Assembly: GCA_000004985.1 (NCBI GenBank)
Contig: GG738857.1
Length of the DNA stretch: 64,000 nt
From: Naegleria gruberi
Taxonomy: Eukaryota
Strand: one strand, 5' to 3'
Shown here: positions 11,692 through 61,146 of the stretch, piece by piece
How the letters are laid out: every line of letters begins with the position of its first letter
Position numbering within the stretch: the stretch's first letter is position 1
Notes under the pieces: model-generated
What the model was told of the DNA's origin: nothing
The model's input: only the letters and a program-made list of their open reading frames with translations
Database searches by the model: none
Translations under genes and position numbers: made by a program

Positions 11692-14379
11692 TTGTTTTTT
11701 CTCAAAGGCTTTGAAATGATCAAATTGAATTACGATCAAGAACTGGATATGTTTATCTGTGGAGGAAGTGGTATTGAGTTTACCTCTCAAATATCTGCTA
11801 ACCAACCTCTAATTAAAACCTCTCTAGTTGAATTGTACTTTCCATCCAAACAATCATCGAGTGGCAAAACAAATACCACTCAAACAACCGATTCCTCGAA
11901 CAAGGATCAATCAACCAACTCTGACGACAAGAAAATCACTCCTCCTATTCAGTATGGTGCCATTCCGAAGTTCTTACAAAAAACCAATCAGAACAACATC
12001 GTCTTTGTCTCAACTCCTTACAGTGAAGGTGTTATATTTCATAACTACAAGGAGATATTTCTGTGTGGCCATGTTTTAAAGGACTCCGTGCAGACTCTTC
12101 ATAAGGTTCCAGTGTTTTCAGAGACTGATAATTCAATTGTGCAAATTGTGACATGTAGACACTCAATGTTTGTCCTGTTATCTAATGGGAAGATGTACAG
12201 TTTGAGAGGAAACGAGATGGTAGTTTATTTAGATCAGGAAAAGAGAGCTCTCGATCCAAAGTGTCTCCTACAAGAAATTCCATTCGATAAACCAATTAAA
12301 TATGTTTCGAATGGTGGTGGGAAACACTTCTTTGCTCAAACAACAGACAATGAGCTCTATGCTATTGGTGACGATACATTTGGACAATTATGCCTTTCTA
12401 AATCCTCCATAAGATCACACAATGGATTTTCCAATAATACCAAAAATGTAGATGAAAGAAAGGAACTTGATGATTATGAATCCACAACTTTCTATCCAAA
12501 ATTTGTAAAAGTCCCAATTGATAAGACAATCTCAATGCAAGATAACGAAATTGAGAAGATTGAATGTGGGTTAAATCATACATTCATTCTAATAAGAAAT
12601 GTACAGACTGGTGCTAAATCTCTCTATTCCTCAGGGTGCTCATACTATGGCCAAACAGCAATTGGTTCAACAAGAAATAGAAACAGACTCTCTCAGGTAG
12701 AATTGAATTGCTCCAATGAAATTATAGATATCAAATGTAATAACAATGGCTCATATGTCATTACACCAAGAGCACTCTTCTATGCCGGTATCAATGATCA
12801 AAATATTCTTTCTGTAAATAAGGCATACAGTTCAGTGTTGACAGAAGTTCCTCTTACTACTCAAATAGCATCAAATGACGAATTCAGTATTATGGAATGT
12901 GGCTACAACCACTGCCTTGCTGTCACTAAGAGGAATAGAATATTTGGCTTTGGAAGATCCTCGTCCAATCAGTTCGGCATTGGTTTAAACAACTATATTT
13001 GCCAAGAGATTGAAACAAAGGAATTGTTTGACAAGAAGATTGTTGCCATTTGTTGTGGTCATTCTCATAGTATTATATTTTCTCAACCTTTGGTAGCTCC
13101 TGTTGAAGATGAAGTGCAGCTCCACGAAGACTTAATCAAGCTAAGATCGAGTAGTAATGTCTGGGATTTACAAATATTTACTGCATCCAAAGACTTTTCA
13201 GTGAAAATTCCTTTGTATATTCTTTCTAAAAGAAGACCAGAACTGCTGAGTTACAACAAGTCAAAGGCACCAAAATCCAAAGATAGTTTATTATATTTGA
13301 TAGATTGGATTTATTTCAATACATTCATTGAACCATCCCTACAGATTGACAGCTTGATTGATGTTCTTGAGTGGATGACTGTAAATAATGTGCAAGATGA
13401 AAGTCTTACTAACCTTGTTCTCAATGAATCAATAATAAGAACTAACGAAGAAAATGTGTATGACACCATCCAATACATATTGAATAGAAAGTATCCTAAG
13501 GAGGAGTCACCATTATCAGCTTTTTGGCACCATGCTCTAAGCTTTTGTAAACAATATATTGTAGAGAATAGCTTCTGTAAAATTAAGAACTCAAGCTTTC
13601 TCAAACAAAGCATTTTAGTTGAAATAGCAAAGCTAGAAGATCCAAATCTATTGGAATGTAGATCACTCAGTGAAGTTCAAGAATCTCTTCCTCAAACTAT
13701 TCCAGAAATTGTTTCAGAAATTTTCGACTCACCACAGCTCTCTGATTTACAAATCGTGCTAGACAAATCTAGAGGATTTGTTGTCTATTGTCACAAATCA
13801 ATTCTTGAAACACGAAGCAATTATTTTAATATGAAAAAGTACGGATTTCAAGCAGCTACAATCAATGAAATTGACGTAAGCTGTCTCTTCACTATATTTA
13901 AGAAAAATGAAGATATTACATTCGAGGATTTCATTAATTTGAAATCATTATTGAAATATCTTTATACTGGAAGAATTGAAATCACAACAAAAAATGCACT
14001 CACACTCATGTTACTTTGGGAAGCTATGGGAATGTCTGAAAAAAGTCCTCTATTTGAAACATGTAAAGACTTTGTTTGTAGAGGGCTCTGTATCGAGAAC
14101 ATTATGAATGTCATTACAAAGGTTGTCAACAGAGAAAAGAAATCTACACCAACTGAGAGTCCTTCAATGATTGGCTTTGGAATTTTCAGAAATCTAATTC
14201 AAGAAGAGGAATCACACTTGCAACCTTATAATTACTCCATCATTGAAACGGAATGCCTAAACTTTTGTGCCAACAAATGGAAGGAAATTCTCTTGATTTA
14301 CAAGCACGACATTTTAAATTTCCTATCAAAGGAACAACTCTTGAAGATTACATGTATCCAAAACAGAGTTTCCTTGTAG
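11692..14379 (+). CDS. RCC1-repeat and BTB/POZ domain protein (RCBTB-like)
   Basis: RCC1 blades (CGLNHTFIL, CGYNHCLAVT, CCGHSHSIIF) followed by a BTB-like segment (LQIVLDKSRGFVVYCHKSILETRSNYF); single 895-aa ORF. Confidence 0.8.
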   Translation: MFFLKGFEMIKLNYDQELDMFICGGSGIEFTSQISANQPLIKTSLVELYFPSKQSSSGKTNTTQTTDSSNKDQSTNSDDKKITPPIQYGAIPKFLQKTNQNNIVFVSTPYSEGVIFHNYKEIFLCGHVLKDSVQTLHKVPVFSETDNSIVQIVTCRHSMFVLLSNGKMYSLRGNEMVVYLDQEKRALDPKCLLQEIPFDKPIKYVSNGGGKHFFAQTTDNELYAIGDDTFGQLCLSKSSIRSHNGFSNNTKNVDERKELDDYESTTFYPKFVKVPIDKTISMQDNEIEKIECGLNHTFILIRNVQTGAKSLYSSGCSYYGQTAIGSTRNRNRLSQVELNCSNEIIDIKCNNNGSYVITPRALFYAGINDQNILSVNKAYSSVLTEVPLTTQIASNDEFSIMECGYNHCLAVTKRNRIFGFGRSSSNQFGIGLNNYICQEIETKELFDKKIVAICCGHSHSIIFSQPLVAPVEDEVQLHEDLIKLRSSSNVWDLQIFTASKDFSVKIPLYILSKRRPELLSYNKSKAPKSKDSLLYLIDWIYFNTFIEPSLQIDSLIDVLEWMTVNNVQDESLTNLVLNESIIRTNEENVYDTIQYILNRKYPKEESPLSAFWHHALSFCKQYIVENSFCKIKNSSFLKQSILVEIAKLEDPNLLECRSLSEVQESLPQTIPEIVSEIFDSPQLSDLQIVLDKSRGFVVYCHKSILETRSNYFNMKKYGFQAATINEIDVSCLFTIFKKNEDITFEDFINLKSLLKYLYTGRIEITTKNALTLMLLWEAMGMSEKSPLFETCKDFVCRGLCIENIMNVITKVVNREKKSTPTESPSMIGFGIFRNLIQEEESHLQPYNYSIIETECLNFCANKWKEILLIYKHDILNFLSKEQLLKITCIQNRVSL

Positions 14380-48662: not shown

Positions 48663-50011
48663 ATGTTTTATGCCGCCGGAGCTAATGAACATGGTAGGTT
48701 ATTAGTAATAATTAAATAGTAAATTGATGGAATATCAAATTAATTTATAGGTCAATTGGGGAATGGTACTTACTCGAACGTTATGGATCTCTCTCCCATC
48801 AACATATCAGCTCATCACTATAGACAAAAAACCTATCGTCAGCTAGGTCCCAAATGTCTTGCTGATTTTGCATCACTCGATGAACGTTCATTGATTGGTC
48901 TTTGTAAAATTAAACAAATTGCTTGTGGTAAACGTCATACCATGATACTAACTGGTAAGTTATTGTATCACAGCATGTTCAAGCTAATTAAACTATTTAA
49001 ATAGAGGAAAATGATTTGTATGCTTGCGGAGATAATTCCAACTCTCAACTTGGAGTCTATGAAACAATATCCAATAATACTGTTGAATGGATAGATTTTG
49101 AACCCGCTAGGACGTCAAGAATTACCTCAATTGCTTGCAGCTCTAATTCTTCCTTTATATTTTTGGAAAATGGTGAAATGTACAAAACAAGTCCTAACAA
49201 AATCTCTAATTTATCCCACAAAAATTCATTTTTCAAACTTACCATCGATAGCAAGAGCCAAGTGAAGAATTTCTTTAGCTCACCAACAACGAGTAGATTC
49301 CACATACTAACCAATGATAATTCTGTATTTGTAGGAGGGGAAGATGAGCAAGGTTTTTGGTTGTCAAGACAAGACCAAGCTCTGAAACCGACATCATTCC
49401 CTATCATCACCAACCCAATTAAAATAATTTCAAGTGGAGGTTTCCATACAGTCATTATTACCGAGAAGAATGAATATTTCAGTTTGGGAGGAAATTATTT
49501 CTATCAACGAGGTGACACAGATGATAGAGCTGCCATTAGAGAAGGTACTAATTTACCATTCTCTGGAAAGGCTATTAGTCAAGTTTGTTGTGGACATTTC
49601 CACACACTAGTGTTGTGTGCAGATGGAAGCTTGTATGCTTGTGGTAAAAACAGTCATGGACAACTTGGAAGCCCAACCCTCAATGAAAAGAATCTCTACA
49701 TGAAAGTACCAATTAATGCCTATATACACTCAATGCTTTGTGGAACAGACCATACCGTATTATTATCAACTGATAAGAGAGTTATGAGATGTGGAAAAAA
49801 TGACAGAGGGCAAATCTTTATAGATTTCAAAAAGCAAAACTCATCATTTGAAATGCTGAAAGTCAAGGAGTTTGCCCATTTGGCTTGTGGTGCTCATTTT
49901 ACAATATGTTATGGAGACATGACCTATGTTATTAATCGTTTCCCAAAGATTGCTTCATTTCTGAAGAGAACAGAACTATCTGATGTGAGGATTAAGTGTT
50001 ATGACGATTAA
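48663..50011 (+). CDS. RCC1-repeat protein, 3 exons
   Basis: Exon 1 48663..48693 (MFYAAGANEHG), exon 2 48751..48954, exon 3 49005..50011. Motifs GQLGNG, YACGDNSNSQLG, YACGKNSHGQLG, MRCGKNDRGQIF. Confidence 0.7.
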
Positions 50012-50216: not shown

Positions 50217-52256
50217 TTATTGTTGGTTGGTATTGAGAATATACGATAGTTTGTGTTTAGGTTGATCTGGTAAACTATCTGAAGATTTGGAAAATGTTGA
50301 GTGTTTTTGTTTTTCGGTAGTCCATCTCTTAAATGAATCGAAAATGATATTATTCACGACAATATCCTCCAAACCACTAAAAAGTTCCTGCTGTCCAATA
50401 CCACTATTAATTTTGTATCTATATGAATCCAATTCTGTGCTTGAAATATTCAGCAATTTTGGAGCGTTTGGAGCCAAATACTTTTGATACATTTCCTTCT
50501 GCAGTTCACTTCTTTGCTGTAAATTGTTCAGCATCTTGTAGAATTGAACATCTTCCAAGAAGAGTATGGATTCTTCATTGTGCTCCTTAATACAGAACTC
50601 TTTAAATTCATTTCTCTTGGTGTGGTTGTCGAACATTTCCTTAAATTCAATTTTTTCTACGAGTTTGTTGTATTGGGTTTCCTTTTCCTTCAAGTGCTTC
50701 AAGAGGGATGTTTTATCTGTATGGTTGTGGATGAGAAGGACGCAAACCAAAATATAATCAGAGATTTCTTCTGTTGACTTATCCTCTGATTGATGCTTGT
50801 TTGCCTCAGTTTTGAGCATTTTACAAAAGTTGATAGAAACTCTCACATTGAACTCAATGCCCACCTTACTAGAGGCAACAGTTTCAAGATCGTGGAATGA
50901 TGCTTCATCTCCTTCAGTGAGGGCTTTTTCAAACATTTCTTTCAAATTGAGTTTTGGTAGAATTGAATTAATGATAGTTGACCTATCCTTTTCACCTCTT
51001 CTCAAATCAATTTCTGTCAGTGAAAACATGTTGTAGAATGCATTATTACAGTGAATAATGGATCCATCAGTTAGAATTGTAATGACAGCATCATCGATGG
51101 TGTTCAAAATTCTTCTTGTTCTCTGCTCCTCGAGAGAAATCTTATCCAATAGCACAGATAATTGTTGATGACTCTGAGCTAGATCTTTCGTCCTCTCTGC
51201 CACCTTAATTTCTAATTTGTTTTGAATGATGAGGTATTCCTTCTTTCTAAAATAGTCCTGAACCAATTGGAAGACTGCCAGAATGACTAGAACTGCCAAA
51301 ATAAAATTCAAAACAATACCAAAAGCAATTTCCACATAGTAGGTATCTTCGTGGGTCCATCCTTGTAAAGGTTTTAACAAGAGTTTGTATTCGCTATTGA
51401 GAATGGTCATATTTACAGAGATTGCATCATCAATGCTAGTCAAGTTGGTAGTGATACCATTTGTTGTCATGTTGGTACCATTTCTGGCCTCTAAGAAAAT
51501 TCTATTTTGTTCATATTCATATAATTGATATTCATAACCTTTGAGAGTATCATGGAGGTTGATTCTGTTGAATAATGTTGTAAAATAGATGATTGAACTC
51601 GATAATCCCCAAAATGTTTGATTAGGATAAAACAATGGGTACTGTGTAATGAGAGCAGCTGTTGCTAATCTCTTAATATAGATTGGTCCAAAGATTGTAG
51701 TTTCCTTCAGTTCAATTGCTCTGTTGATGGCTCTCAAGTGAGCTGCTTCACTACCAACAACCTTTCCATAAACAAACGAAAGAACAAGTCCCTTGTCAAT
51801 TTCGAATTGTGCTAATTCCGGATAAATTACATTTAACCTCGAACCAAGGTCTGCAAATGAAGAATCCGTTATTGTATAATTTGATGAATAAATTACTTGA
51901 GCAATTGAAACTAAACTACTCATTGACAATTCTATTTGTCTTTTCATGGCCAAGTAGGCTGTTAATCCCACCTGTGTAACTTGTGCCTTCTTTGTTTCCA
52001 TTCTATTATCATCAACAGTTTTTAAAACGACAGACGTCACCGGCACAGTCACACACAAGGCAACCAATGCCAGAACTAAACCCAATATTATACTCAATAT
52101 ATAGACTCCTCGTTGTCTTTTCGATAATTCTTGTTTCAAATTTCCTACAACATTTTCACTTGTTGAAAGAGCTTGTTTAGATTGTTTTAATGTTGGAGTT
52201 GAATCTCCAGCCACAGTTGGCCCAATTTCTTCGTCTATTAGCGAATCCAGCACCAT
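50217..52256 (-). CDS. membrane RGS-domain protein: TM - ~250-aa extracytoplasmic domain - TM - coiled region - PAS-like - C-terminal RGS
   Basis: TM helices VYILSIILGLVLALVALCV and YVEIAFGIVLNFILAVLVILAVF. PAS-like segment IDDAVITILTDGSIIHCNNAFYNMFSL. RGS core EFKEFCIKEHNEESILFLEDVQFYK...IFDSFKRW. Confidence 0.7.
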   Translation of the reverse strand: MVLDSLIDEEIGPTVAGDSTPTLKQSKQALSTSENVVGNLKQELSKRQRGVYILSIILGLVLALVALCVTVPVTSVVLKTVDDNRMETKKAQVTQVGLTAYLAMKRQIELSMSSLVSIAQVIYSSNYTITDSSFADLGSRLNVIYPELAQFEIDKGLVLSFVYGKVVGSEAAHLRAINRAIELKETTIFGPIYIKRLATAALITQYPLFYPNQTFWGLSSSIIYFTTLFNRINLHDTLKGYEYQLYEYEQNRIFLEARNGTNMTTNGITTNLTSIDDAISVNMTILNSEYKLLLKPLQGWTHEDTYYVEIAFGIVLNFILAVLVILAVFQLVQDYFRKKEYLIIQNKLEIKVAERTKDLAQSHQQLSVLLDKISLEEQRTRRILNTIDDAVITILTDGSIIHCNNAFYNMFSLTEIDLRRGEKDRSTIINSILPKLNLKEMFEKALTEGDEASFHDLETVASSKVGIEFNVRVSINFCKMLKTEANKHQSEDKSTEEISDYILVCVLLIHNHTDKTSLLKHLKEKETQYNKLVEKIEFKEMFDNHTKRNEFKEFCIKEHNEESILFLEDVQFYKMLNNLQQRSELQKEMYQKYLAPNAPKLLNISSTELDSYRYKINSGIGQQELFSGLEDIVVNNIIFDSFKRWTTEKQKHSTFSKSSDSLPDQPKHKLSYILNTNQQ

Positions 52257-55360: not shown

Positions 55361-56884
55361 ATGAGTGAGAATAATACACCAAACTTTGACGCATTCTCTC
55401 CAATTGTATTTCCAATGGATCTGCCAACGGCAGGTGGTAGTAATCAAACATCATCATCAGCAGTCGGTGGTGGATCATCATCATTGGGTTTGAATACATC
55501 GAGCAATTTTCTAACACCTTCAGTCTTTGAAACGAATGTAAGAGTTGGCGTTAATCAAACTTCAAGTATTAAACCGATTAGAGCTGTGGGTCTTGATGCT
55601 TTTAATAATGATACTTCATCGGTGCCAATTTCTAATGAAGAATCACCACAAATATTTACACCAGGCATCACAGCTGAACTTTTAAATACACAAACACCAA
55701 GGATTCAACTTTTACCTCCAACTCCAACACCAAACGAAACTCCATTCGCAACCAAGATTGACAATCTTTATCCACAGCAGGTTGATCCATTGAGCAACTT
55801 TGATTTTGGACAAAAGAATCATAGACCTGTAGGTGCTGCAAATATTGTGACACAATATCCTGCCAATACTTTTAATATGCATGTCATGAAGGGTTTCTTT
55901 ATTGATCCAAGTCAAGTTGCCGCAGTTCCACAAGGTATGCCACAAATTCCAGGTCCCAGTAGTGATTCGCCATCGTCACCAACTGGTGAATGTCTTCCAA
56001 CTGGTACTTTACTTTCTGTTATTAGAGGATTTAGTATTGATGATGGAGTTCCAGAAGAACCTGGTGGCAGAGACAATAAGAAACCACTCACTTCACACAC
56101 TGTTCAAGTTAGAATTGCTGACCTAGTTGCCGAACATCCATTAGGTCCAAATCAAACCTACGTAATCAAATGTGTATTATTAGGTTATAAACGATATGAA
56201 AAGGAAGAATTATCAACATTAGAATCAATACCAATTGAAAATATTGATAACCCTGCAGAGTATGAAGAATTTGTCTTTAACAATCTGATTGTTAAACAAA
56301 CAAGTCACAGCAATGGTCAAAAGTTATTCTTGAGATTTAAACTTGAAATTAATTCTGATAGTGGAGAACAAGTATTGGAAGCTTTAGATACTACACACTT
56401 TAAAACAGTCACAAAGAGAGCTGTCATTAAAAGAGGTGTAACTAGGAAATTGAGCGAGCAAAAGAAGACAGCAACTGTATTGACAGGAGCAGAACCAAAA
56501 TACAGTGTCACTTCTGGTGGTCAATTGATAAAACTGGTAACAAATAACATGCCAGAAAAGGTCAGAGTTCAAACAATTGTAGTTAAATTTGGAGAAAAGA
56601 AAGCCAGAAGAGTTCACTCAGCTAGGGATAATGTAATTATTTGTGAAACACCTGAATATCCAAAATCTGACAATGTACCAATTTCTGTTTCATTAGATAG
56701 TGGAGCAACATTTTTCCATTCGTCTGGTGTTAAAATGTCGTTTATTGACCCAACTGATGGATTACCAGATATCACTCCTCACAGTCAAACATTTGTTGTG
56801 AACTTTGCTCAGGCTGCCAGTGACCTTAAACATGACAGAGATGAAGATACCGAACCAAATAATAAGAAAAAGTCTAAGAAATAA
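55361..56884 (+). CDS. hypothetical protein; S/T-rich N-terminus and a C-terminal beta-sandwich (IPT/TIG-like) candidate
   Basis: 507-aa ORF; YSVTSGGQLIKLVTNNMPEKVRVQTIVVKFGEKKARRVHSARDNVIICETPEY resembles an IPT/TIG fold. Confidence 0.5.
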   Translation: MSENNTPNFDAFSPIVFPMDLPTAGGSNQTSSSAVGGGSSSLGLNTSSNFLTPSVFETNVRVGVNQTSSIKPIRAVGLDAFNNDTSSVPISNEESPQIFTPGITAELLNTQTPRIQLLPPTPTPNETPFATKIDNLYPQQVDPLSNFDFGQKNHRPVGAANIVTQYPANTFNMHVMKGFFIDPSQVAAVPQGMPQIPGPSSDSPSSPTGECLPTGTLLSVIRGFSIDDGVPEEPGGRDNKKPLTSHTVQVRIADLVAEHPLGPNQTYVIKCVLLGYKRYEKEELSTLESIPIENIDNPAEYEEFVFNNLIVKQTSHSNGQKLFLRFKLEINSDSGEQVLEALDTTHFKTVTKRAVIKRGVTRKLSEQKKTATVLTGAEPKYSVTSGGQLIKLVTNNMPEKVRVQTIVVKFGEKKARRVHSARDNVIICETPEYPKSDNVPISVSLDSGATFFHSSGVKMSFIDPTDGLPDITPHSQTFVVNFAQAASDLKHDRDEDTEPNNKKKSKK

Positions 56885-56892
56885 ATGTAAAT

Positions 56893-58899
56893 TTAAACAA
56901 GATTTAAATTCTTCATATCATCGTCATATTTCTTCAATTCTCTAACCATGTCAATAAAGTTAGAGCTCAGAATAAATCTTGACCATGTATCTTGAACACA
57001 ATTTAAACAGGTTATTTCTACATTATCAAGGATGGTATTTAAAAGGTCAGTGTTGCTGGATTGCCATGATGAATCCCCTTTCTCTGTCATTTCTTGATCT
57101 CCACTTTTGTTGAGATGGGTTTCCACGAGTTGATTGAGTTGCTTAAGAGATCTATCAAACTCCTTCTTTACATTGGATGAAAGATTGAGCTCGAATGGTG
57201 CACCATTGACAATAAAGCTCTCGTTGAGTTTGTGTAATATTTGTGTTTTCTTTCTGATATCCTCAAAGGTATGAGTTGGAAGATTGTTGAAAACCTTATT
57301 GGAAAAGTACAAGAATAAAAAGTTCTCTGCTGAAAACTCCAATTCGCACCATTCTTTGAAATATTTCTGACAAACCTCCTCATTAAACATGACAAAGAGA
57401 ATGACACGAGTATCAACAATTCTTTCATCTTGCTCTTCTGCATTTTCCTTTGTAAGAAATCCAGCTTCAGTGTAGAGAATCTTTCTAATTCTATCATTTT
57501 CCATATCGGAGGATAAATCTCTGAACAAGTTGCTACTACCACTTCTATCAGCAGAATTATTCTTATTCTTGATTCCAATTTTCTTGCCGTCAGAGTTTTG
57601 CCATAAGAAACTTCTAATCAAAGGTATCCATACACTGATGATACTTGTAATGAAGAGAGGAATATTAACCATCCATGCAGCTGCAAAGTAATATTCAGGT
57701 TCTGCTTGGTATTGTGGAATGACACTCATTAAAATAAAGCCAATTAAGAAAATGGCCCAAATTACCACAACAGATACCAACTCTGCCTTGATGCCAAAGG
57801 ATTCCTTGGCATATCTCATTACCTTGTAGAAGAAGAATAGAATGAAAATACCATAGAATAGAATGAGAGAAATTGAACCTGCATATACAGGAATAGTAGC
57901 AGCACAACCCACATTCCAAGTTTCTTGACCTGTCAATCTATTCAAAAACACTCCACAATAAGCCAAAAAGATAATACTGTTCAAGAGGAAAGTGAATAAG
58001 AAAATTTTAGCAGTAAAGTCCTCTCTAGCCAATTTTCTCAATTGCTTCAATCTCTTTTGTCTCTTTTCTGACCATTTCTTACTCTTGGCTGTATTGTCAA
58101 CATTTCCACCTAAATGCAAAGCACTTTTCACTCTCTCCTTAAAACTCTTCGATGTAGAACTATCTCTTTTAAGGTGTGGAATGTTTTGTGAATTTTTTCT
58201 ATCCAGGGCAAGGTCGAATGAACCTGTTGTGGAGACAGTTGCTGGTGAAGCATCTGTTGTTATCTGTGAAAGTGAAGAATTTGCAGTCAACAAATGTATT
58301 TGAGAAGATGATTTGTCAAGCTTCTTTTCCGTTGTTGATGATGTTTCCAAAAGATCAACGCCCATGGAAACTAAATGACTCTTAAAACTATCACCCTGTA
58401 ATCTGTTCATTTCAGAAATATAGTACAATCTGATGCACAAGACAAGGTATGGAATGGCTATCAGTGGAAAGCCATAAAATTGAAAACTCAAATAGAATAT
58501 ACAAGGGAAGGCCTCTCTTTTCACAGCCAACCTCAGAGAAAGTATCGTAAAGGAAAAATAATGTGCAATAATTAATATAAATACAAATAGTGAGGATCTC
58601 GCCTTGACAGGTTGTTTGTTTCTTCTAAAGAAGAATGTTATGAGTGTTACGATTGTATATATTGTGAATGCTCCCCAAATTGCATATGATGTGTACCAAA
58701 CGTATGGTGGATCATCTCGTGTAATCTGTTGATTAAATTGGTCCTGTTGAATATCATAGATTTTTCCAATTTCTTCCAAATTATTCGAAAGTTGAAAATG
58801 ACTCGCCGATGCTGATGATGATGTACACGTGAACATATTCATTATCCTATTCACTATCGATTGTGAAAGGAAATCCATCGTGGTTAATAAATATCTCAT
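56893..58899 (-). CDS. seven-transmembrane protein with C-terminal RGS domain (7TM-RGS)
   Basis: Seven hydrophobic helices (TM1-3, ~140-aa basic/Ser-rich loop, TM4-7), then FKEWCELEFSAENFLFLYFSNKVF...LHKLNESFIVNGAPFELNLSSNVKKEF (RGS box). Confidence 0.7.
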   Translation of the reverse strand: MRYLLTTMDFLSQSIVNRIMNMFTCTSSSASASHFQLSNNLEEIGKIYDIQQDQFNQQITRDDPPYVWYTSYAIWGAFTIYTIVTLITFFFRRNKQPVKARSSLFVFILIIAHYFSFTILSLRLAVKREAFPCIFYLSFQFYGFPLIAIPYLVLCIRLYYISEMNRLQGDSFKSHLVSMGVDLLETSSTTEKKLDKSSSQIHLLTANSSLSQITTDASPATVSTTGSFDLALDRKNSQNIPHLKRDSSTSKSFKERVKSALHLGGNVDNTAKSKKWSEKRQKRLKQLRKLAREDFTAKIFLFTFLLNSIIFLAYCGVFLNRLTGQETWNVGCAATIPVYAGSISLILFYGIFILFFFYKVMRYAKESFGIKAELVSVVVIWAIFLIGFILMSVIPQYQAEPEYYFAAAWMVNIPLFITSIISVWIPLIRSFLWQNSDGKKIGIKNKNNSADRSGSSNLFRDLSSDMENDRIRKILYTEAGFLTKENAEEQDERIVDTRVILFVMFNEEVCQKYFKEWCELEFSAENFLFLYFSNKVFNNLPTHTFEDIRKKTQILHKLNESFIVNGAPFELNLSSNVKKEFDRSLKQLNQLVETHLNKSGDQEMTEKGDSSWQSSNTDLLNTILDNVEITCLNCVQDTWSRFILSSNFIDMVRELKKYDDDMKNLNLV

Positions 58900-59640: not shown

Positions 59641-61146
59641 ATGATGGGAAATGTGATTTTGGAGTTGGATAGAAATATTTCATCGGAATTTCTAAAGGAT
59701 CAATTTTCAAGGACTTGCAAATTGAATTATTTAAAAACTATAATATTTCAACTTGTTGTGATTAGAGATAAGAAGTGCCTCCCTCTTGTTCAATTATTTA
59801 GTCATGATCGAGGATTTATTGAAAAGATGGTCGAATATCAGGCATTTGCTCTTGGCTATGCTTCAAAAGAAATTAAAAAAGACAAATCGATAGCAGTTAA
59901 GGCATTGAAAACAAGTGGACACTCAATATCTTGTGTCGATGAGTCGTTATATTCCGATCGAGAAATAGCTCTTATTGCACTATCAAGTCATTCCTATGCC
60001 ATTCGTTTCTTTATGGAACACTTTTCTAATGATAAGGAGATAATCATGAATGCAGTTTCGAAATGTGGTAACTTAATTCATTATGCTACATATTGTGATT
60101 TGGATATTATATTGGCTGCTGTGACAACGTACGAGCTTGCATTTGAGCTTGCCGACCCAAAATATTATTTTGATAGAGAAATAATGATGGTAGCGGTTAC
60201 AAGGAATGGAATAACTCTTAGATATGCAAGTGAAACATTACGAGAGGATAGAGAAATAGTTCTGAAAGCTGTGAAAAATGCTGGAGATGCTTTGAGATAT
60301 GCCTTAGTACAAGATAGAGAAATTGCCTTAGAGGCAGTAAAATCTTCTGGTACAGCGCTTCAGTTTGTTGACAAGAATTTCCTTAGCGACTCAGAAATAG
60401 TCATGATAGCTCTTCATTCAAATGGTTCTTCTTTACAGTATCTACCTAAAGAAATGAGAGAAATAAGGGAATATGTTGAAGCTGCAATTTCTGAAAATCC
60501 TCTGTCAATTCAATATGCTAGTGAGGTGTATAAATCAGATAGAGAGCTAGTTAAAAAGGCTATATCCGAAAAGGGAAATATTTTAGGATATGTTGACAAG
60601 AAATTTCTGAAAGATGAGCAAATTGTTTTTTTGGCTGCTTTAAACAATCCTATAACCTTCAAATACGCAGATGAAAGTTTACGGTCTAATCTGAATTTCA
60701 TATTGGACATTATAAGGACTTCAAAGAAAACAAATGTATTAATGAGCTATTTGCCGGCCCCTGGTAGCATTAACATTTATAATGATAGAGAGTTCTATTC
60801 AAAGATTCCTATCGATACACATTTTATTAAGGAGAAAATTAGACTTTGTGGATTCAAGGCTACATTTGAAGAGTTTAGTTACAGTAAGGAAATAATTACA
60901 GAGATGGTCAAAGATTACATGACACTTGCTTTTATTAATGAAGGACTTCAACAAGATAGAGAAATGCTTCGAACTGCTCTTAATCTTAATGGTGAGCTGA
61001 TTAGTGAAATGCCTTTCATTATTGACAACTTGGATATTGAACTGATTCAAGTATCATTAATTTCCCTTCTTTCTGGCAGCGATGATAAAGAAAAGGAAAT
61101 TATCCATCAAACTCTACAATTAATCCAACATTCACAACAACTTTAA
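59641..61146 (+). CDS. DUF4116 repeat protein
   Basis: At least 8 tandem ~33-aa repeats of the DREI(A/V)L.AVK..G.AL.YA...L..D type. Confidence 0.65.
   Translation: MMGNVILELDRNISSEFLKDQFSRTCKLNYLKTIIFQLVVIRDKKCLPLVQLFSHDRGFIEKMVEYQAFALGYASKEIKKDKSIAVKALKTSGHSISCVDESLYSDREIALIALSSHSYAIRFFMEHFSNDKEIIMNAVSKCGNLIHYATYCDLDIILAAVTTYELAFELADPKYYFDREIMMVAVTRNGITLRYASETLREDREIVLKAVKNAGDALRYALVQDREIALEAVKSSGTALQFVDKNFLSDSEIVMIALHSNGSSLQYLPKEMREIREYVEAAISENPLSIQYASEVYKSDRELVKKAISEKGNILGYVDKKFLKDEQIVFLAALNNPITFKYADESLRSNLNFILDIIRTSKKTNVLMSYLPAPGSINIYNDREFYSKIPIDTHFIKEKIRLCGFKATFEEFSYSKEIITEMVKDYMTLAFINEGLQQDREMLRTALNLNGELISEMPFIIDNLDIELIQVSLISLLSGSDDKEKEIIHQTLQLIQHSQQL

What the first reader, a model, noticed from the sequence alone, without database searches (positions are those of the whole stretch)
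56893..58899. Seven-transmembrane receptor fused to an RGS domain
The topology is 7 TM helices with a C-terminal RGS box, as in plant AtRGS1-type receptor-GAPs. It would be a self-contained GPCR-like sensor that directly accelerates G-alpha GTP hydrolysis. A second membrane RGS protein lies only 4.6 kb away (50217..52256). Together they suggest a local pair of receptor-GAP signalling genes.
Basis: partly seen in the sequence, partly recalled or inferred. Interest (0 to 1): 0.55.

Follow-up and report, generated by a model that had tools for sequence, protein, structure and literature searches.

The report
Naegleria class-C-type 7TM receptor–RGS fusion
This is a real Naegleria gruberi gene for a membrane receptor with seven helices fused to a domain that switches G proteins off; this kind of protein is already known in Naegleria and plants, the new detail is that its membrane part looks like glutamate/GABA-B-type receptors, and the supposed pairing with a nearby gene is not supported.

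Summary
Window 56893..58899 (-) is an uninterrupted 668-codon ORF, 100% identical to an unnamed NCBI "predicted protein" of Naegleria gruberi, so the organism is not a dictyostelid. It has seven conserved hydrophobic helices in an N-out/C-in arrangement and a C-terminal RGS domain.

The RGS match is below the Pfam cut-off on the native sequence (17.6 vs 23.9 bits). That is because a variable 24-residue insert splits the domain: without it the score is 24.8 bits. The predicted fold matches RGS4/8/16, and the Gα-contact residues are conserved.

The 7TM core belongs to a family found in Heterolobosea, Euglenida, Anaeramoeba and Amoebozoa. By sequence and fold it is class C (GABA-B/mGlu-like), with no Venus-flytrap domain and a ~130-residue TM3–TM4 loop.

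7TM-RGS proteins are already described in N. fowleri (28 genes, GAP activity shown for three) and in plants (AtRGS1), so this is a new member of a known kind. Homology of the 7TM core to AtRGS1's is unresolved.

The "local pair" idea is not supported. The PAS-RGS neighbour is only distantly related, is absent from the orthologous loci in two other Naegleria species, and N. gruberi has about 229 RGS genes.

The parts
56893..58899 (-). Complete CDS of the 7TM-RGS protein: 668 codons plus stop. The probable true start is Met8 at 58878, as in the NCBI model.
   Evidence: ORF list. 100% identity to N. gruberi predicted protein P0001. The MDFL start is conserved in N. fowleri.
58708..58899 (-). Short, poorly conserved extracellular N-terminus (aa 1-64). 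It has no Venus-flytrap domain and no other recognisable ectodomain.
   Evidence: No Pfam match. Variable among orthologs. Low pLDDT.
57604..58707 (-). Class C-type seven-transmembrane core (aa 65-432). Model helices: TM1 65-92, TM2 103-126, TM3 133-160 (helix continues to 178), TM4 293-322, TM5 336-363, TM6 370-393, TM7 408-432.
58594..58626 (-). ICL1 motif RRNKQPVKARS (aa 92-102). It is the family signature RRNxQPxKxRSP and aligns to GABA-B2 NRNQKLIKMSSP.
   Evidence: Family column counts, with R101 present in 75 of 78. HMM alignment to GABA-B2.
58501..58503 (-). Cys133 at the top of TM3 (FPC motif). It is the candidate partner of Cys332 in the GPCR-type TM3-ECL2 disulfide.
   Evidence: Cys in 77 of 78 family members. 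Aligned to the TM3 Cys of GABA-B2.
57904..57906 (-). Cys332 in ECL2 (GC motif), the candidate disulfide partner of Cys133.
   Evidence: Cys in 77 of 78 family members. Aligned to the ECL2 Cys of GABA-B2 and to the DKC motif of AtRGS1.
58024..58419 (-). Very long second intracellular loop (aa 161-292). It is rich in Ser/Thr (25%) and Lys/Arg. Its ends are conserved helical extensions of TM3 and TM4 (YYISEMNRLQGDSF and KKWSEKRxKRLKQLRKLAR) and its middle is disordered.
   Evidence: Alignment. The TM3-TM4 spacing between the two half-profiles varies from about 3 to about 300 residues across the family. Composition. pLDDT below 50 for aa 183-251.
57412..57603 (-). Cytosolic linker between TM7 and the RGS domain (aa 433-496), mostly disordered.
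   Evidence: pLDDT below 50 for aa 439-465. Variable in length among orthologs.
56908..57411 (-). RGS domain (aa 497-664), a nine-helix bundle. It keeps S523/E525/N526 (RGS4 S85/E87/N88), N572 (N128) and D637/T638/R641 (D163/S164/R167).
   Evidence: Pfam RGS 17.6 bits on the native sequence and 24.8 bits with the insert removed. 24 of 26 PDB profile hits are RGS proteins. hhalign to RGS4. Foldseek matches RGS4/8/16 with TMt 0.79-0.88. Family conservation. hhalign to AtRGS1 at 98.8%.
57058..57129 (-). Lineage-variable insert within the RGS domain, between helices α6 and α7 (aa 591-614). It is 24 aa here and about 55-70 aa in N. lovaniensis and Willaertia.
   Evidence: Ortholog alignment. Removing it lifts the Pfam RGS match to model positions 6-112 of 117. 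pLDDT dips at aa 600-613.

Best explanation
The gene encodes a receptor-GAP of the 7TM-RGS kind. A GPCR-fold membrane domain of the class C (GABA-B/mGlu-like) type, without an extracellular Venus-flytrap module, is oriented N-terminus out and C-terminus in. It carries on its cytosolic tail a catalytically competent RGS domain.

The RGS domain would bind the switch regions of GTP-bound Naegleria Gα subunits, some of which self-activate, and accelerate GTP hydrolysis. That keeps G-protein signalling off at the membrane. A signal acting on the 7TM bundle, or phosphorylation and endocytosis involving the long Ser/Thr-rich second intracellular loop, would relieve or enhance this GAP action.

Shown here: the ORF, its conservation, the seven helices, the class C-like fold, the RGS fold and the conserved contact residues. 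Inferred: GAP activity, which Gα is the target, cell-surface location, and any ligand control.
For: The ORF is real and conserved.

Topology: seven helices, and positive-inside loop charges give a cytosolic RGS. ICL1 has 5 K/R and ICL3 has 3, against 0 in ECL2 and ECL3.

RGS domain: shown by Pfam after insert removal; by 5 of 6 orthogroup members and 72 of 78 family members matching PF00615; by the PDB profile search; and by Foldseek matches to Gα-bound RGS4/8/16 with TMt up to 0.88. The equivalents of RGS4 E87, N128 and R167 are present in 74, 72 and 71 of 78 family members, and in this protein.

Precedent: RGS domains of three N. fowleri 7TM-RGS proteins accelerate GTP hydrolysis on Nf Gα2/3/5/7 (PMC9283941). 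AtRGS1 works this way in plants, and its RGS domain aligns with this family at 98.8% probability.
Against: No biochemical or expression data exist for this gene. The native sequence is below the Pfam RGS cut-off, and the RGS carries an unusual α6-α7 insert.

The protein has no ectodomain, so a ligand, if any, is unknown. The 130-residue ICL2 and the loss of the family's conserved Arg aligned to the class C 3.50 ionic-lock position (L154 here, R in 69 of 78) make its conformational control hard to predict.

The 7TM assignment rests on a predicted model and on weak sequence scores. The window protein itself has no 7tm_3 hit, and the best family hit to GABA-B2 has E 2.8e-4.
Confidence: 0.72

Rival explanations
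1. It is a true G-protein-activating class C-type GPCR that also carries its own RGS. The 7TM core would act as a GEF on a Gα, and the tethered RGS would sharpen or self-limit the response, so it would be more than a pure receptor-GAP.
For: The 7TM fold and motifs are class C-like. The family keeps an acidic residue (E373, 69 of 78) aligned to GABA-B2 D6.35, and most members keep a basic residue aligned to K3.50, which suggests a working conformational switch. Canonical GPCRs and 7TM-RGS proteins coexist in several lineages (PMC3971589).
Against: This orthogroup has lost the basic 3.50-like residue (L154). It also has a 130-residue insertion in ICL2, a loop that established class C GPCR knowledge implicates in G-protein coupling. 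The only tested precedents, AtRGS1 and Nf 7TM RGS2-4, are GAPs acting on self-activating Gα, and no GEF activity has been reported for them (PMC9283941).
Confidence: 0.15
2. The RGS domain is a non-catalytic scaffold, like the RGS-homology domains of GRKs, axin or sorting nexins. The protein would then be a membrane anchor or trafficking factor, not a GAP.
For: The RGS is divergent (sub-threshold Pfam score) and is interrupted by a variable insert. Some RGS domains have lost GAP activity (statement in PMC3971589).
Against: All the key Gα-contact positions of RGS4 are conserved here and are nearly invariant across 78 family members: S85, E87, N88, N128, D163 and R167, with S164 replaced by Thr. 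The best structural matches are catalytic R4-type RGS domains in complex with Gα.
Confidence: 0.08
3. The 7TM-RGS gene and the PAS-RGS gene 4.6 kb away form a functionally linked local pair of receptor-GAP genes.
For: Both are membrane proteins with C-terminal RGS domains on the same strand, 4.6 kb apart.
Against: The RGS domains share only 28% identity over 74 aa and nothing else aligns. The PAS-RGS gene has no match within 10 kb of the ortholog in N. lovaniensis or N. fowleri, where only the convergent 507-aa neighbour is conserved. With about 229 RGS genes (PMC3971589) among roughly 15,700 genes (my own recollection of the genome paper), another RGS gene within three genes on either side is expected about 8-9% of the time.
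Confidence: 0.03

Closest known systems
Arabidopsis AtRGS1 (Q8H1F2), the prototype 7TM-RGS receptor-GAP
   Same: Both have seven TM helices followed by a cytosolic RGS domain. The RGS domains are homologous: hhalign 98.8%, E 4.7e-17, in one co-linear block from the ECL2 Cys through TM5-7 into the RGS. They share the IVxGAxxELNLS motif and the catalytic Glu (AtRGS1 E320, here E525). AtRGS1's modelled 7TM is also reported as closest to class C (PMC11580166).
   Different: 7TM-only sequence similarity is not significant (hhalign probability 1.2%), and AtRGS1 has no 7tm_3 Pfam hit. AtRGS1 is 459 aa with short loops. This protein has a 130-residue ICL2, a 64-residue linker and an insert inside the RGS domain.
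Naegleria fowleri 7TM RGS family (28 genes; Nf 7TM RGS1-4 studied; Bosch et al. 2022, PMC9283941)
   Same: Same genus and the same 7TM plus C-terminal RGS architecture. For three of these proteins the RGS domain was shown to be a selective GAP for Naegleria Gα subunits. This gene has a direct N. fowleri ortholog, FDP41_001169.
   Different: The four studied proteins are 1215-2459 aa or longer, with adhesion-GPCR-like ectodomains (EGF-like repeats, lectin domains, GPS motif). This one is 668 aa with no ectodomain. The list of all 28 is not available, so I could not tell whether the ortholog was counted. That paper does not describe the 7TM class ('class C' has no occurrences in it).
Class C GPCR transmembrane domains lacking a Venus-flytrap module (GPR156, GPR158/GPR179, GPRC5D), and GABA-B2
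   Different: Sequence identity is only 9-12%. The window protein itself does not reach any Pfam 7tm_3 score. The basic 3.50-like residue is missing here. Dimerisation is unknown.
GPR158-RGS7-Gβ5 complex (PMC8611064)
   Same: Functional logic: a class C-type 7TM without a Venus-flytrap domain positions an RGS GAP at the membrane to terminate Gα signalling.
   Different: In animals the RGS (RGS7) is a separate protein recruited in trans by the receptor's cytoplasmic helices. Here the RGS is fused in cis. No evidence links the two by descent.

Membership tests
7TM-RGS receptor-GAPs (AtRGS1-type architecture) | Seven transmembrane helices, N-terminus outside and C-terminus cytosolic | tested here: met
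   Seven hydropathy peaks conserved in the orthologs. Seven helices with pLDDT above 90 in the AF2 model. Positive-inside charge distribution. Orientation is inferred, not measured.
7TM-RGS receptor-GAPs (AtRGS1-type architecture) | RGS domain C-terminal to TM7 | tested here: met
   hhalign to AtRGS1 at 98.8%.
7TM-RGS receptor-GAPs (AtRGS1-type architecture) | Conserved Gα-contact and catalytic residues (RGS4 E87/N88/N128/D163/R167; AtRGS1 E320) | tested here: met
   E525, N526, N572, D637 and R641 are present and are found in 46-74 of 78 family members.
7TM-RGS receptor-GAPs (AtRGS1-type architecture) | GAP activity on a cognate Gα | not testable with these tools
   Needs a GTPase assay. Precedent exists only for paralogous N. 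fowleri proteins (PMC9283941).
7TM-RGS receptor-GAPs (AtRGS1-type architecture) | 7TM core homologous to that of plant RGS1 | tested here: inconclusive
   The 7TM-only profile against AtRGS1 gives hhalign probability 1.2%, E 0.043. The full-length profile aligns co-linearly from ECL2 through TM7 into the RGS, but that score is driven by the RGS. Both 7TMs are class C-like by fold (PMC11580166).
RGS domain (Pfam PF00615) | Score at or above the gathering cut-off of 23.9 bits | tested here: inconclusive
   The native protein scores 17.6 bits, below the cut-off. With the 24-aa α6-α7 insert removed it scores 24.8 bits over model positions 6-112 of 117. Ortholog P0005 and 72 of 78 family members match, best E 1.1e-27.
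RGS domain (Pfam PF00615) | Nine-helix RGS fold | tested here: met
   Foldseek matches RGS8, RGS4 and RGS16 with TMt 0.79-0.88. The model's RGS region has pLDDT above 90.
Class C GPCR 7TM (Pfam 7tm_3, PF00003) | Sequence match to the 7tm_3 model | tested here: not met
   The window protein has no 7tm_3 hit at E up to 1. Relatives do: 27 of 78 family members at E below 0.01, best 2.8e-11, co-linear but below the gathering score in the 10 members listed individually. The family profile hits GABA-B2 at E 2.8e-4.
Class C GPCR 7TM (Pfam 7tm_3, PF00003) | Class C-type helix packing | tested here: met
Class C GPCR 7TM (Pfam 7tm_3, PF00003) | Conserved TM3-ECL2 cysteine pair | tested here: met
   C133 and C332 are each Cys in 77 of 78 family members and align to the GABA-B2 cysteines. 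The bond itself was not verified.
Class C GPCR 7TM (Pfam 7tm_3, PF00003) | Basic 3.50 / acidic 6.35 ionic lock | tested here: not met
   E373 (6.35-like) is present, but the 3.50-like position is L154 here, against R in 69 of 78 relatives. The assignment of these positions relies on a weak HMM alignment and on my knowledge of GABA-B2 numbering.
Class C GPCR 7TM (Pfam 7tm_3, PF00003) | Extracellular Venus-flytrap and cysteine-rich domains | tested here: not met
   The N-terminus is only 64 residues, unconserved and without a Pfam match. GPR156, GPR158 and GPRC5D also lack a Venus-flytrap domain.
N. fowleri adhesion-like 7TM RGS1-4 (PMC9283941) | Large ectodomain with EGF-like or lectin domains and a GPS motif | tested here: not met
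   No ectodomain and no Pfam hits. The studied proteins are 1215 aa or longer.

The most novel reading that the evidence does not exclude
The compact 7TM-RGS proteins of Heterolobosea, Euglenida, Anaeramoeba and Amoebozoa, and possibly plant RGS1, would form one ancient family. In it a Venus-flytrap-less class C-type GPCR core is fused in cis to an RGS. That would imply that the last eukaryotic common ancestor already had a class C-derived receptor-GAP. It would also mean that the animal GPR158/179-RGS7 arrangement re-creates in trans an ancestral cis design.

Within this family the Naegleria/Willaertia orthogroup, which has lost the ionic-lock Arg and gained a 130-residue ICL2, would be a derived and differently regulated branch.
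Probability: 0.3. Interest if true: 0.6.

Novelty: new member of a known kind. Interest (0 to 1): 0.3.

Why it matters
The finding gives a function to an unnamed N. gruberi gene and to its ortholog in the pathogen N. fowleri. In N. fowleri, G-protein signalling components have been proposed as drug targets (PMC9283941).

The broader point is modest but useful. At least one sizeable, taxonomically wide group of protist 7TM-RGS proteins has a recognisably class C (GABA-B/mGlu-like) transmembrane core. That gives a concrete structural framework for asking how a 7TM domain controls a tethered GAP: the allosteric pocket, the TM3-TM6 lock and dimerisation.

It also offers a bridge for testing whether plant RGS1 shares that origin.

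Tried and rejected
Searches and tools that led nowhere:
- Word-indexed homolog searches with the 7TM profile and with the 78-sequence family alignment returned only the five known orthologs.
- The first AlphaFold2 run, with 6 sequences, gave pLDDT 43.9 and was discarded.
- The shallow 5-sequence 7TM profile found nothing in the PDB. Only the 30-sequence profile did.
- The AFDB50 fold library was unavailable, so no direct structural comparison with the AtRGS1 model could be made.
- Anantharaman et al. 2011, on RGS domain architectures, is not in the held library.
- Literature searches for class C/7tm_3-RGS fusions in protists found no description.
- Pfam found nothing for the ectodomain of the PAS-RGS neighbour or for the 507-aa convergent ORF. 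An earlier attempt used the wrong frame.

Ideas considered and rejected:
- Recent tandem duplication of the two RGS genes.
- Dictyostelid origin.
- Membership of the adhesion-like Nf 7TM RGS1-4 subgroup.
- A Pfam DUF3514 hit at E 0.076, treated as noise.
Full report

Window 56893..58899 on the minus strand is a single uninterrupted ORF of 668 codons plus stop. With the window's base composition a stop is expected every ~14 codons, so the chance of 668 stop-free codons is about 1e-22.

The translation is 100% identical to an NCBI "predicted protein [Naegleria gruberi]" of 661 aa, which starts at Met8 (MDFL...). Orthologs occur in N. lovaniensis (57%), N. fowleri (59%) and Willaertia magna (two copies, 46% and 40%).

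**2. Seven helices and their orientation**

A Kyte-Doolittle scan (19-residue window, threshold 1.6) finds seven hydrophobic segments: aa 72-91, 101-126, 137-162, 294-322, 330-363, 367-398 and 405-433. The same seven recur in every ortholog, except that TM1 of P0005 falls just under the threshold.

The short loops follow the positive-inside rule. ICL1 (RRNKQPVKARS) has 5 Lys/Arg and ICL3 has 3, while ECL2 and ECL3 have none. This puts the N-terminus outside and the C-terminal domain in the cytosol.

An AlphaFold2 model built with only the six orthogroup sequences was poor (pLDDT 43.9). A model built with a 78-sequence family alignment reached mean pLDDT 76.9 and pTM 0.74, with the seven helices (65-92, 103-126, 133-178, 293-322, 336-363, 370-393, 408-432) mostly above 90.

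**3. The RGS domain**

On the native sequence Pfam RGS scores only 17.6 bits (E 0.005), below the 23.9-bit gathering cut-off, and covers model positions 6-83 of 117.

The reason is structural. The ortholog alignment shows a length-variable insert after helix α6: 24 aa here and roughly 55-70 aa in N. lovaniensis and Willaertia. Deleting aa 591-614 raises the score to 24.8 bits and extends the match to positions 6-112 of 117.

Independent support:
- 5 of 6 orthogroup members match PF00615 (best E 4.8e-7).
- 24 of 26 PDB hits of the C-terminal profile are RGS proteins.
- Foldseek aligns the modelled domain with RGS8, RGS4 and RGS16, several of them from Gα complexes, at target-normalised TM-scores of 0.79-0.88.

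hhalign against human RGS4 pairs EFSAEN with EYSEEN (S85, E87, N88) and FELNLS with KEVNLDS (N128). The RGS4 sequence came from memory, but its numbering is consistent with the published residue numbers. By eye, QDTWSRF matches KDSYRRF (D163, S164, R167). Across 78 family members these positions are E in 74, N in 72, R in 71 and D in 64. The domain therefore looks like a working GAP and not a degenerate scaffold.

**4. What is the 7TM module?**

The orthogroup alone matches no Pfam 7TM family and no PDB sequence. An exhaustive HMMER search of 1.84 billion cluster representatives with the orthogroup profile found 217 proteins at E ≤ 1e-3.

Dissecting the listed hits with separate TM1-3, TM4-7 and RGS profiles shows the same bipartite 7TM module, usually followed by an RGS domain, in proteins of about 420-650 aa. 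Named members come from:
- N. lovaniensis (a paralog), Willaertia and Acrasis kona (Heterolobosea);
- Ploeotia vitrea (Euglenida);
- Anaeramoeba flamelloides (Metamonada);
- Clastostelium recurvatum (Amoebozoa);
- many unnamed contigs and assemblies (JGI/IMG, Logan, ENA).

Scanning all 78 full-length members against Pfam gave RGS in 72 (best E 1.1e-27) and 7tm_3, the class C GPCR transmembrane domain, in 27 (best E 2.8e-11). Among ten members scanned individually, four hit 7tm_3. Those hits were co-linear with the model but all below the 33.5-bit cut-off; for example P0017 aa 59-321 matched model positions 10-249 of 251.

A 30-sequence 7TM-only profile, with the TM3-TM4 loop trimmed, hit GABA-B receptor subunit 2 in the PDB at E 2.8e-4 over profile positions 9-261 of 266. 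GPR156, mGlu4 and mGlu7 followed, and 17 of 18 hits below E = 1 were class C.

That alignment pairs:
- the family's ICL1 signature RRNxQPxKxRSP with NRNQKLIKMSSP of GABA-B2;
- the nearly invariant Cys133 (TM3 top) and Cys332 (ECL2) with the receptor's cysteine pair;
- Pro426 with the TM7 Pro;
- Glu373 with the acidic residue I know as 6.35.

So the membrane part is a class C-type core. The N-terminus is only 64 unconserved residues, so there is no Venus-flytrap or cysteine-rich domain.

**5. Peculiarities of this orthogroup**

The loop between TM3 and TM4 is about 130 residues: 25% Ser/Thr, 24 Lys/Arg, a disordered middle, and conserved helical extensions of TM3 and TM4 at its ends. Across the family the spacing between the TM1-3 and TM4-7 profile matches ranges from about 3 to about 300 residues, so this loop is a hot spot for insertions.

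The family's conserved Arg, aligned to the class C 3.50 ionic-lock Lys of GABA-B2, is present in 69 of 78 members. It is Leu154 here and Gln in Willaertia, while the acidic partner is retained. What this means for activation is unknown.

**6. Relation to what is known**

7TM-RGS proteins are an established class. AtRGS1 in plants is the prototype. De Mendoza et al. counted 229 RGS proteins in N. gruberi and noted 7TM-RGS architectures in many bikonts (PMC3971589).

Bosch et al. described 28 7TM-RGS genes in N. fowleri. They showed that the RGS domains of three of them accelerate GTP hydrolysis on specific, partly self-activating, Nf Gα subunits (PMC9283941). The four proteins they studied are 1215 aa or longer, with adhesion-type ectodomains, unlike this compact protein. 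The full list of 28 is not given, so I cannot say whether the N. fowleri ortholog (FDP41_001169) was counted. That paper does not discuss the class of the 7TM domain.

I verified that my recalled AtRGS1 sequence is exact (NP_189238.2). The full-length family profile aligns with it at 98.8% probability (E 4.7e-17), in one co-linear block running from the ECL2 Cys through TM5-TM7 into the RGS domain. That score is driven by the RGS. The 7TM-only comparison is not significant (probability 1.2%), and AtRGS1 has no 7tm_3 hit.

A 2024 paper reports that the AlphaFold2 model of AtRGS1's 7TM is closest to class C mGlu1 (PMC11580166). Common ancestry of the two 7TM cores is therefore plausible but unproven.

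A functional parallel exists in animals. GPR158 is a class C orphan without a Venus-flytrap domain, and it recruits RGS7-Gβ5 in trans to terminate Gαi/o signalling (PMC8611064).

**7. The "local pair" claim**

The gene at 50217..52256 (-) does encode a membrane RGS protein. Its layout is TM, a ~230-aa ectodomain with no Pfam match, TM, PAS, RGS.

But its RGS domain shares only 28% identity over 74 aa with this one, and nothing else aligns. In N. lovaniensis and N. fowleri the only conserved neighbour within 10 kb is the convergent 507-aa ORF; the PAS-RGS gene is absent there.

With about 229 RGS genes (PMC3971589) in a genome of roughly 15,700 genes (my recollection of the genome paper), a second RGS gene within three genes on either side is expected about 8-9% of the time. 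I find no support for a functional pair.

**8. Most likely mechanism**

The protein is a receptor-GAP. A class C-type 7TM core in the membrane holds a competent RGS domain at the inner face, where it deactivates GTP-bound Gα. A signal sensed by the helical bundle, or modification of the long Ser/Thr-rich ICL2 and the linker, would tune this activity or remove the protein from the membrane, as proposed for AtRGS1.

Shown: the gene, its conservation, seven helices, the class C-like fold, the RGS fold and the contact residues. Inferred: GAP activity, the partner Gα, surface localisation, regulation and dimerisation.

Rivals are a dual GEF/GAP receptor (0.15), a non-catalytic RGS scaffold (0.08) and a linked gene pair (0.03).

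**9. Verdict**

This is a new, previously unnamed member of a known kind. The added insight is that its 7TM core, and that of a taxonomically wide family of compact protist 7TM-RGS proteins, is class C-like. Interest is modest (0.3).

Noticed in passing
window 50217..52256 (-): 679-aa protein with a bacterial-sensor-like layout fused to an RGS domain: N-terminal TM helix, ~230-aa ectodomain with no Pfam match, second TM helix, PAS domain (PF13188, 27.8 bits), RGS (48.4 bits). It is an unusual way to couple a PAS/ectodomain sensor to G-protein deactivation.
   Followed up: partly
window 55361..56884 (+): 507-aa ORF with no Pfam match, convergent with the 7TM-RGS gene. The two stop codons are only 8 bp apart (56884 vs 56893), so the 3' UTRs must overlap. 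It is the only neighbour whose synteny is conserved in N. lovaniensis and N. fowleri (~50% identity).
   Followed up: partly
L001 10001-12210 and L002 10001-12525 (orthologs in N. lovaniensis and N. fowleri): Both orthologous genes are interrupted at about aa 330 and aa 517 (gaps of ~110 and ~65 bp between tblastn segments), whereas the N. gruberi ORF is continuous. This is an intron gain or loss within the genus.
   Followed up: partly
P0003 (N. fowleri FDP41_001169), L002 about 12173-12352: The N. fowleri gene model lacks about 27 residues of RGS helix α6, right after FELNLS, and has a long unconserved N-terminal extension. Both are probably annotation artefacts (a mis-called intron and a mis-called start).
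   Followed up: no
window 58438..58440 (codon of Leu154): The family-wide Arg (69 of 78 members) that aligns with the class C 3.50 ionic-lock Lys of GABA-B2 is Leu in the Naegleria orthologs and Gln in Willaertia. The acidic partner (Glu373) is kept. This may indicate an altered or constitutively unlocked TM3-TM6 switch.
   Followed up: partly
window 59641..61146 (+): 501-aa protein made of eight DUF4116 repeats (E 8.8e-89). It is transcribed divergently from the 7TM-RGS gene across a 741-bp AT-rich intergenic region.
   Followed up: no
window 49016..50011 (+): RCC1-repeat ORF (RCC1_2 E 1e-23). It is listed from a TTG start with no upstream ATG, so it is probably one exon of a larger gene.
   Followed up: no
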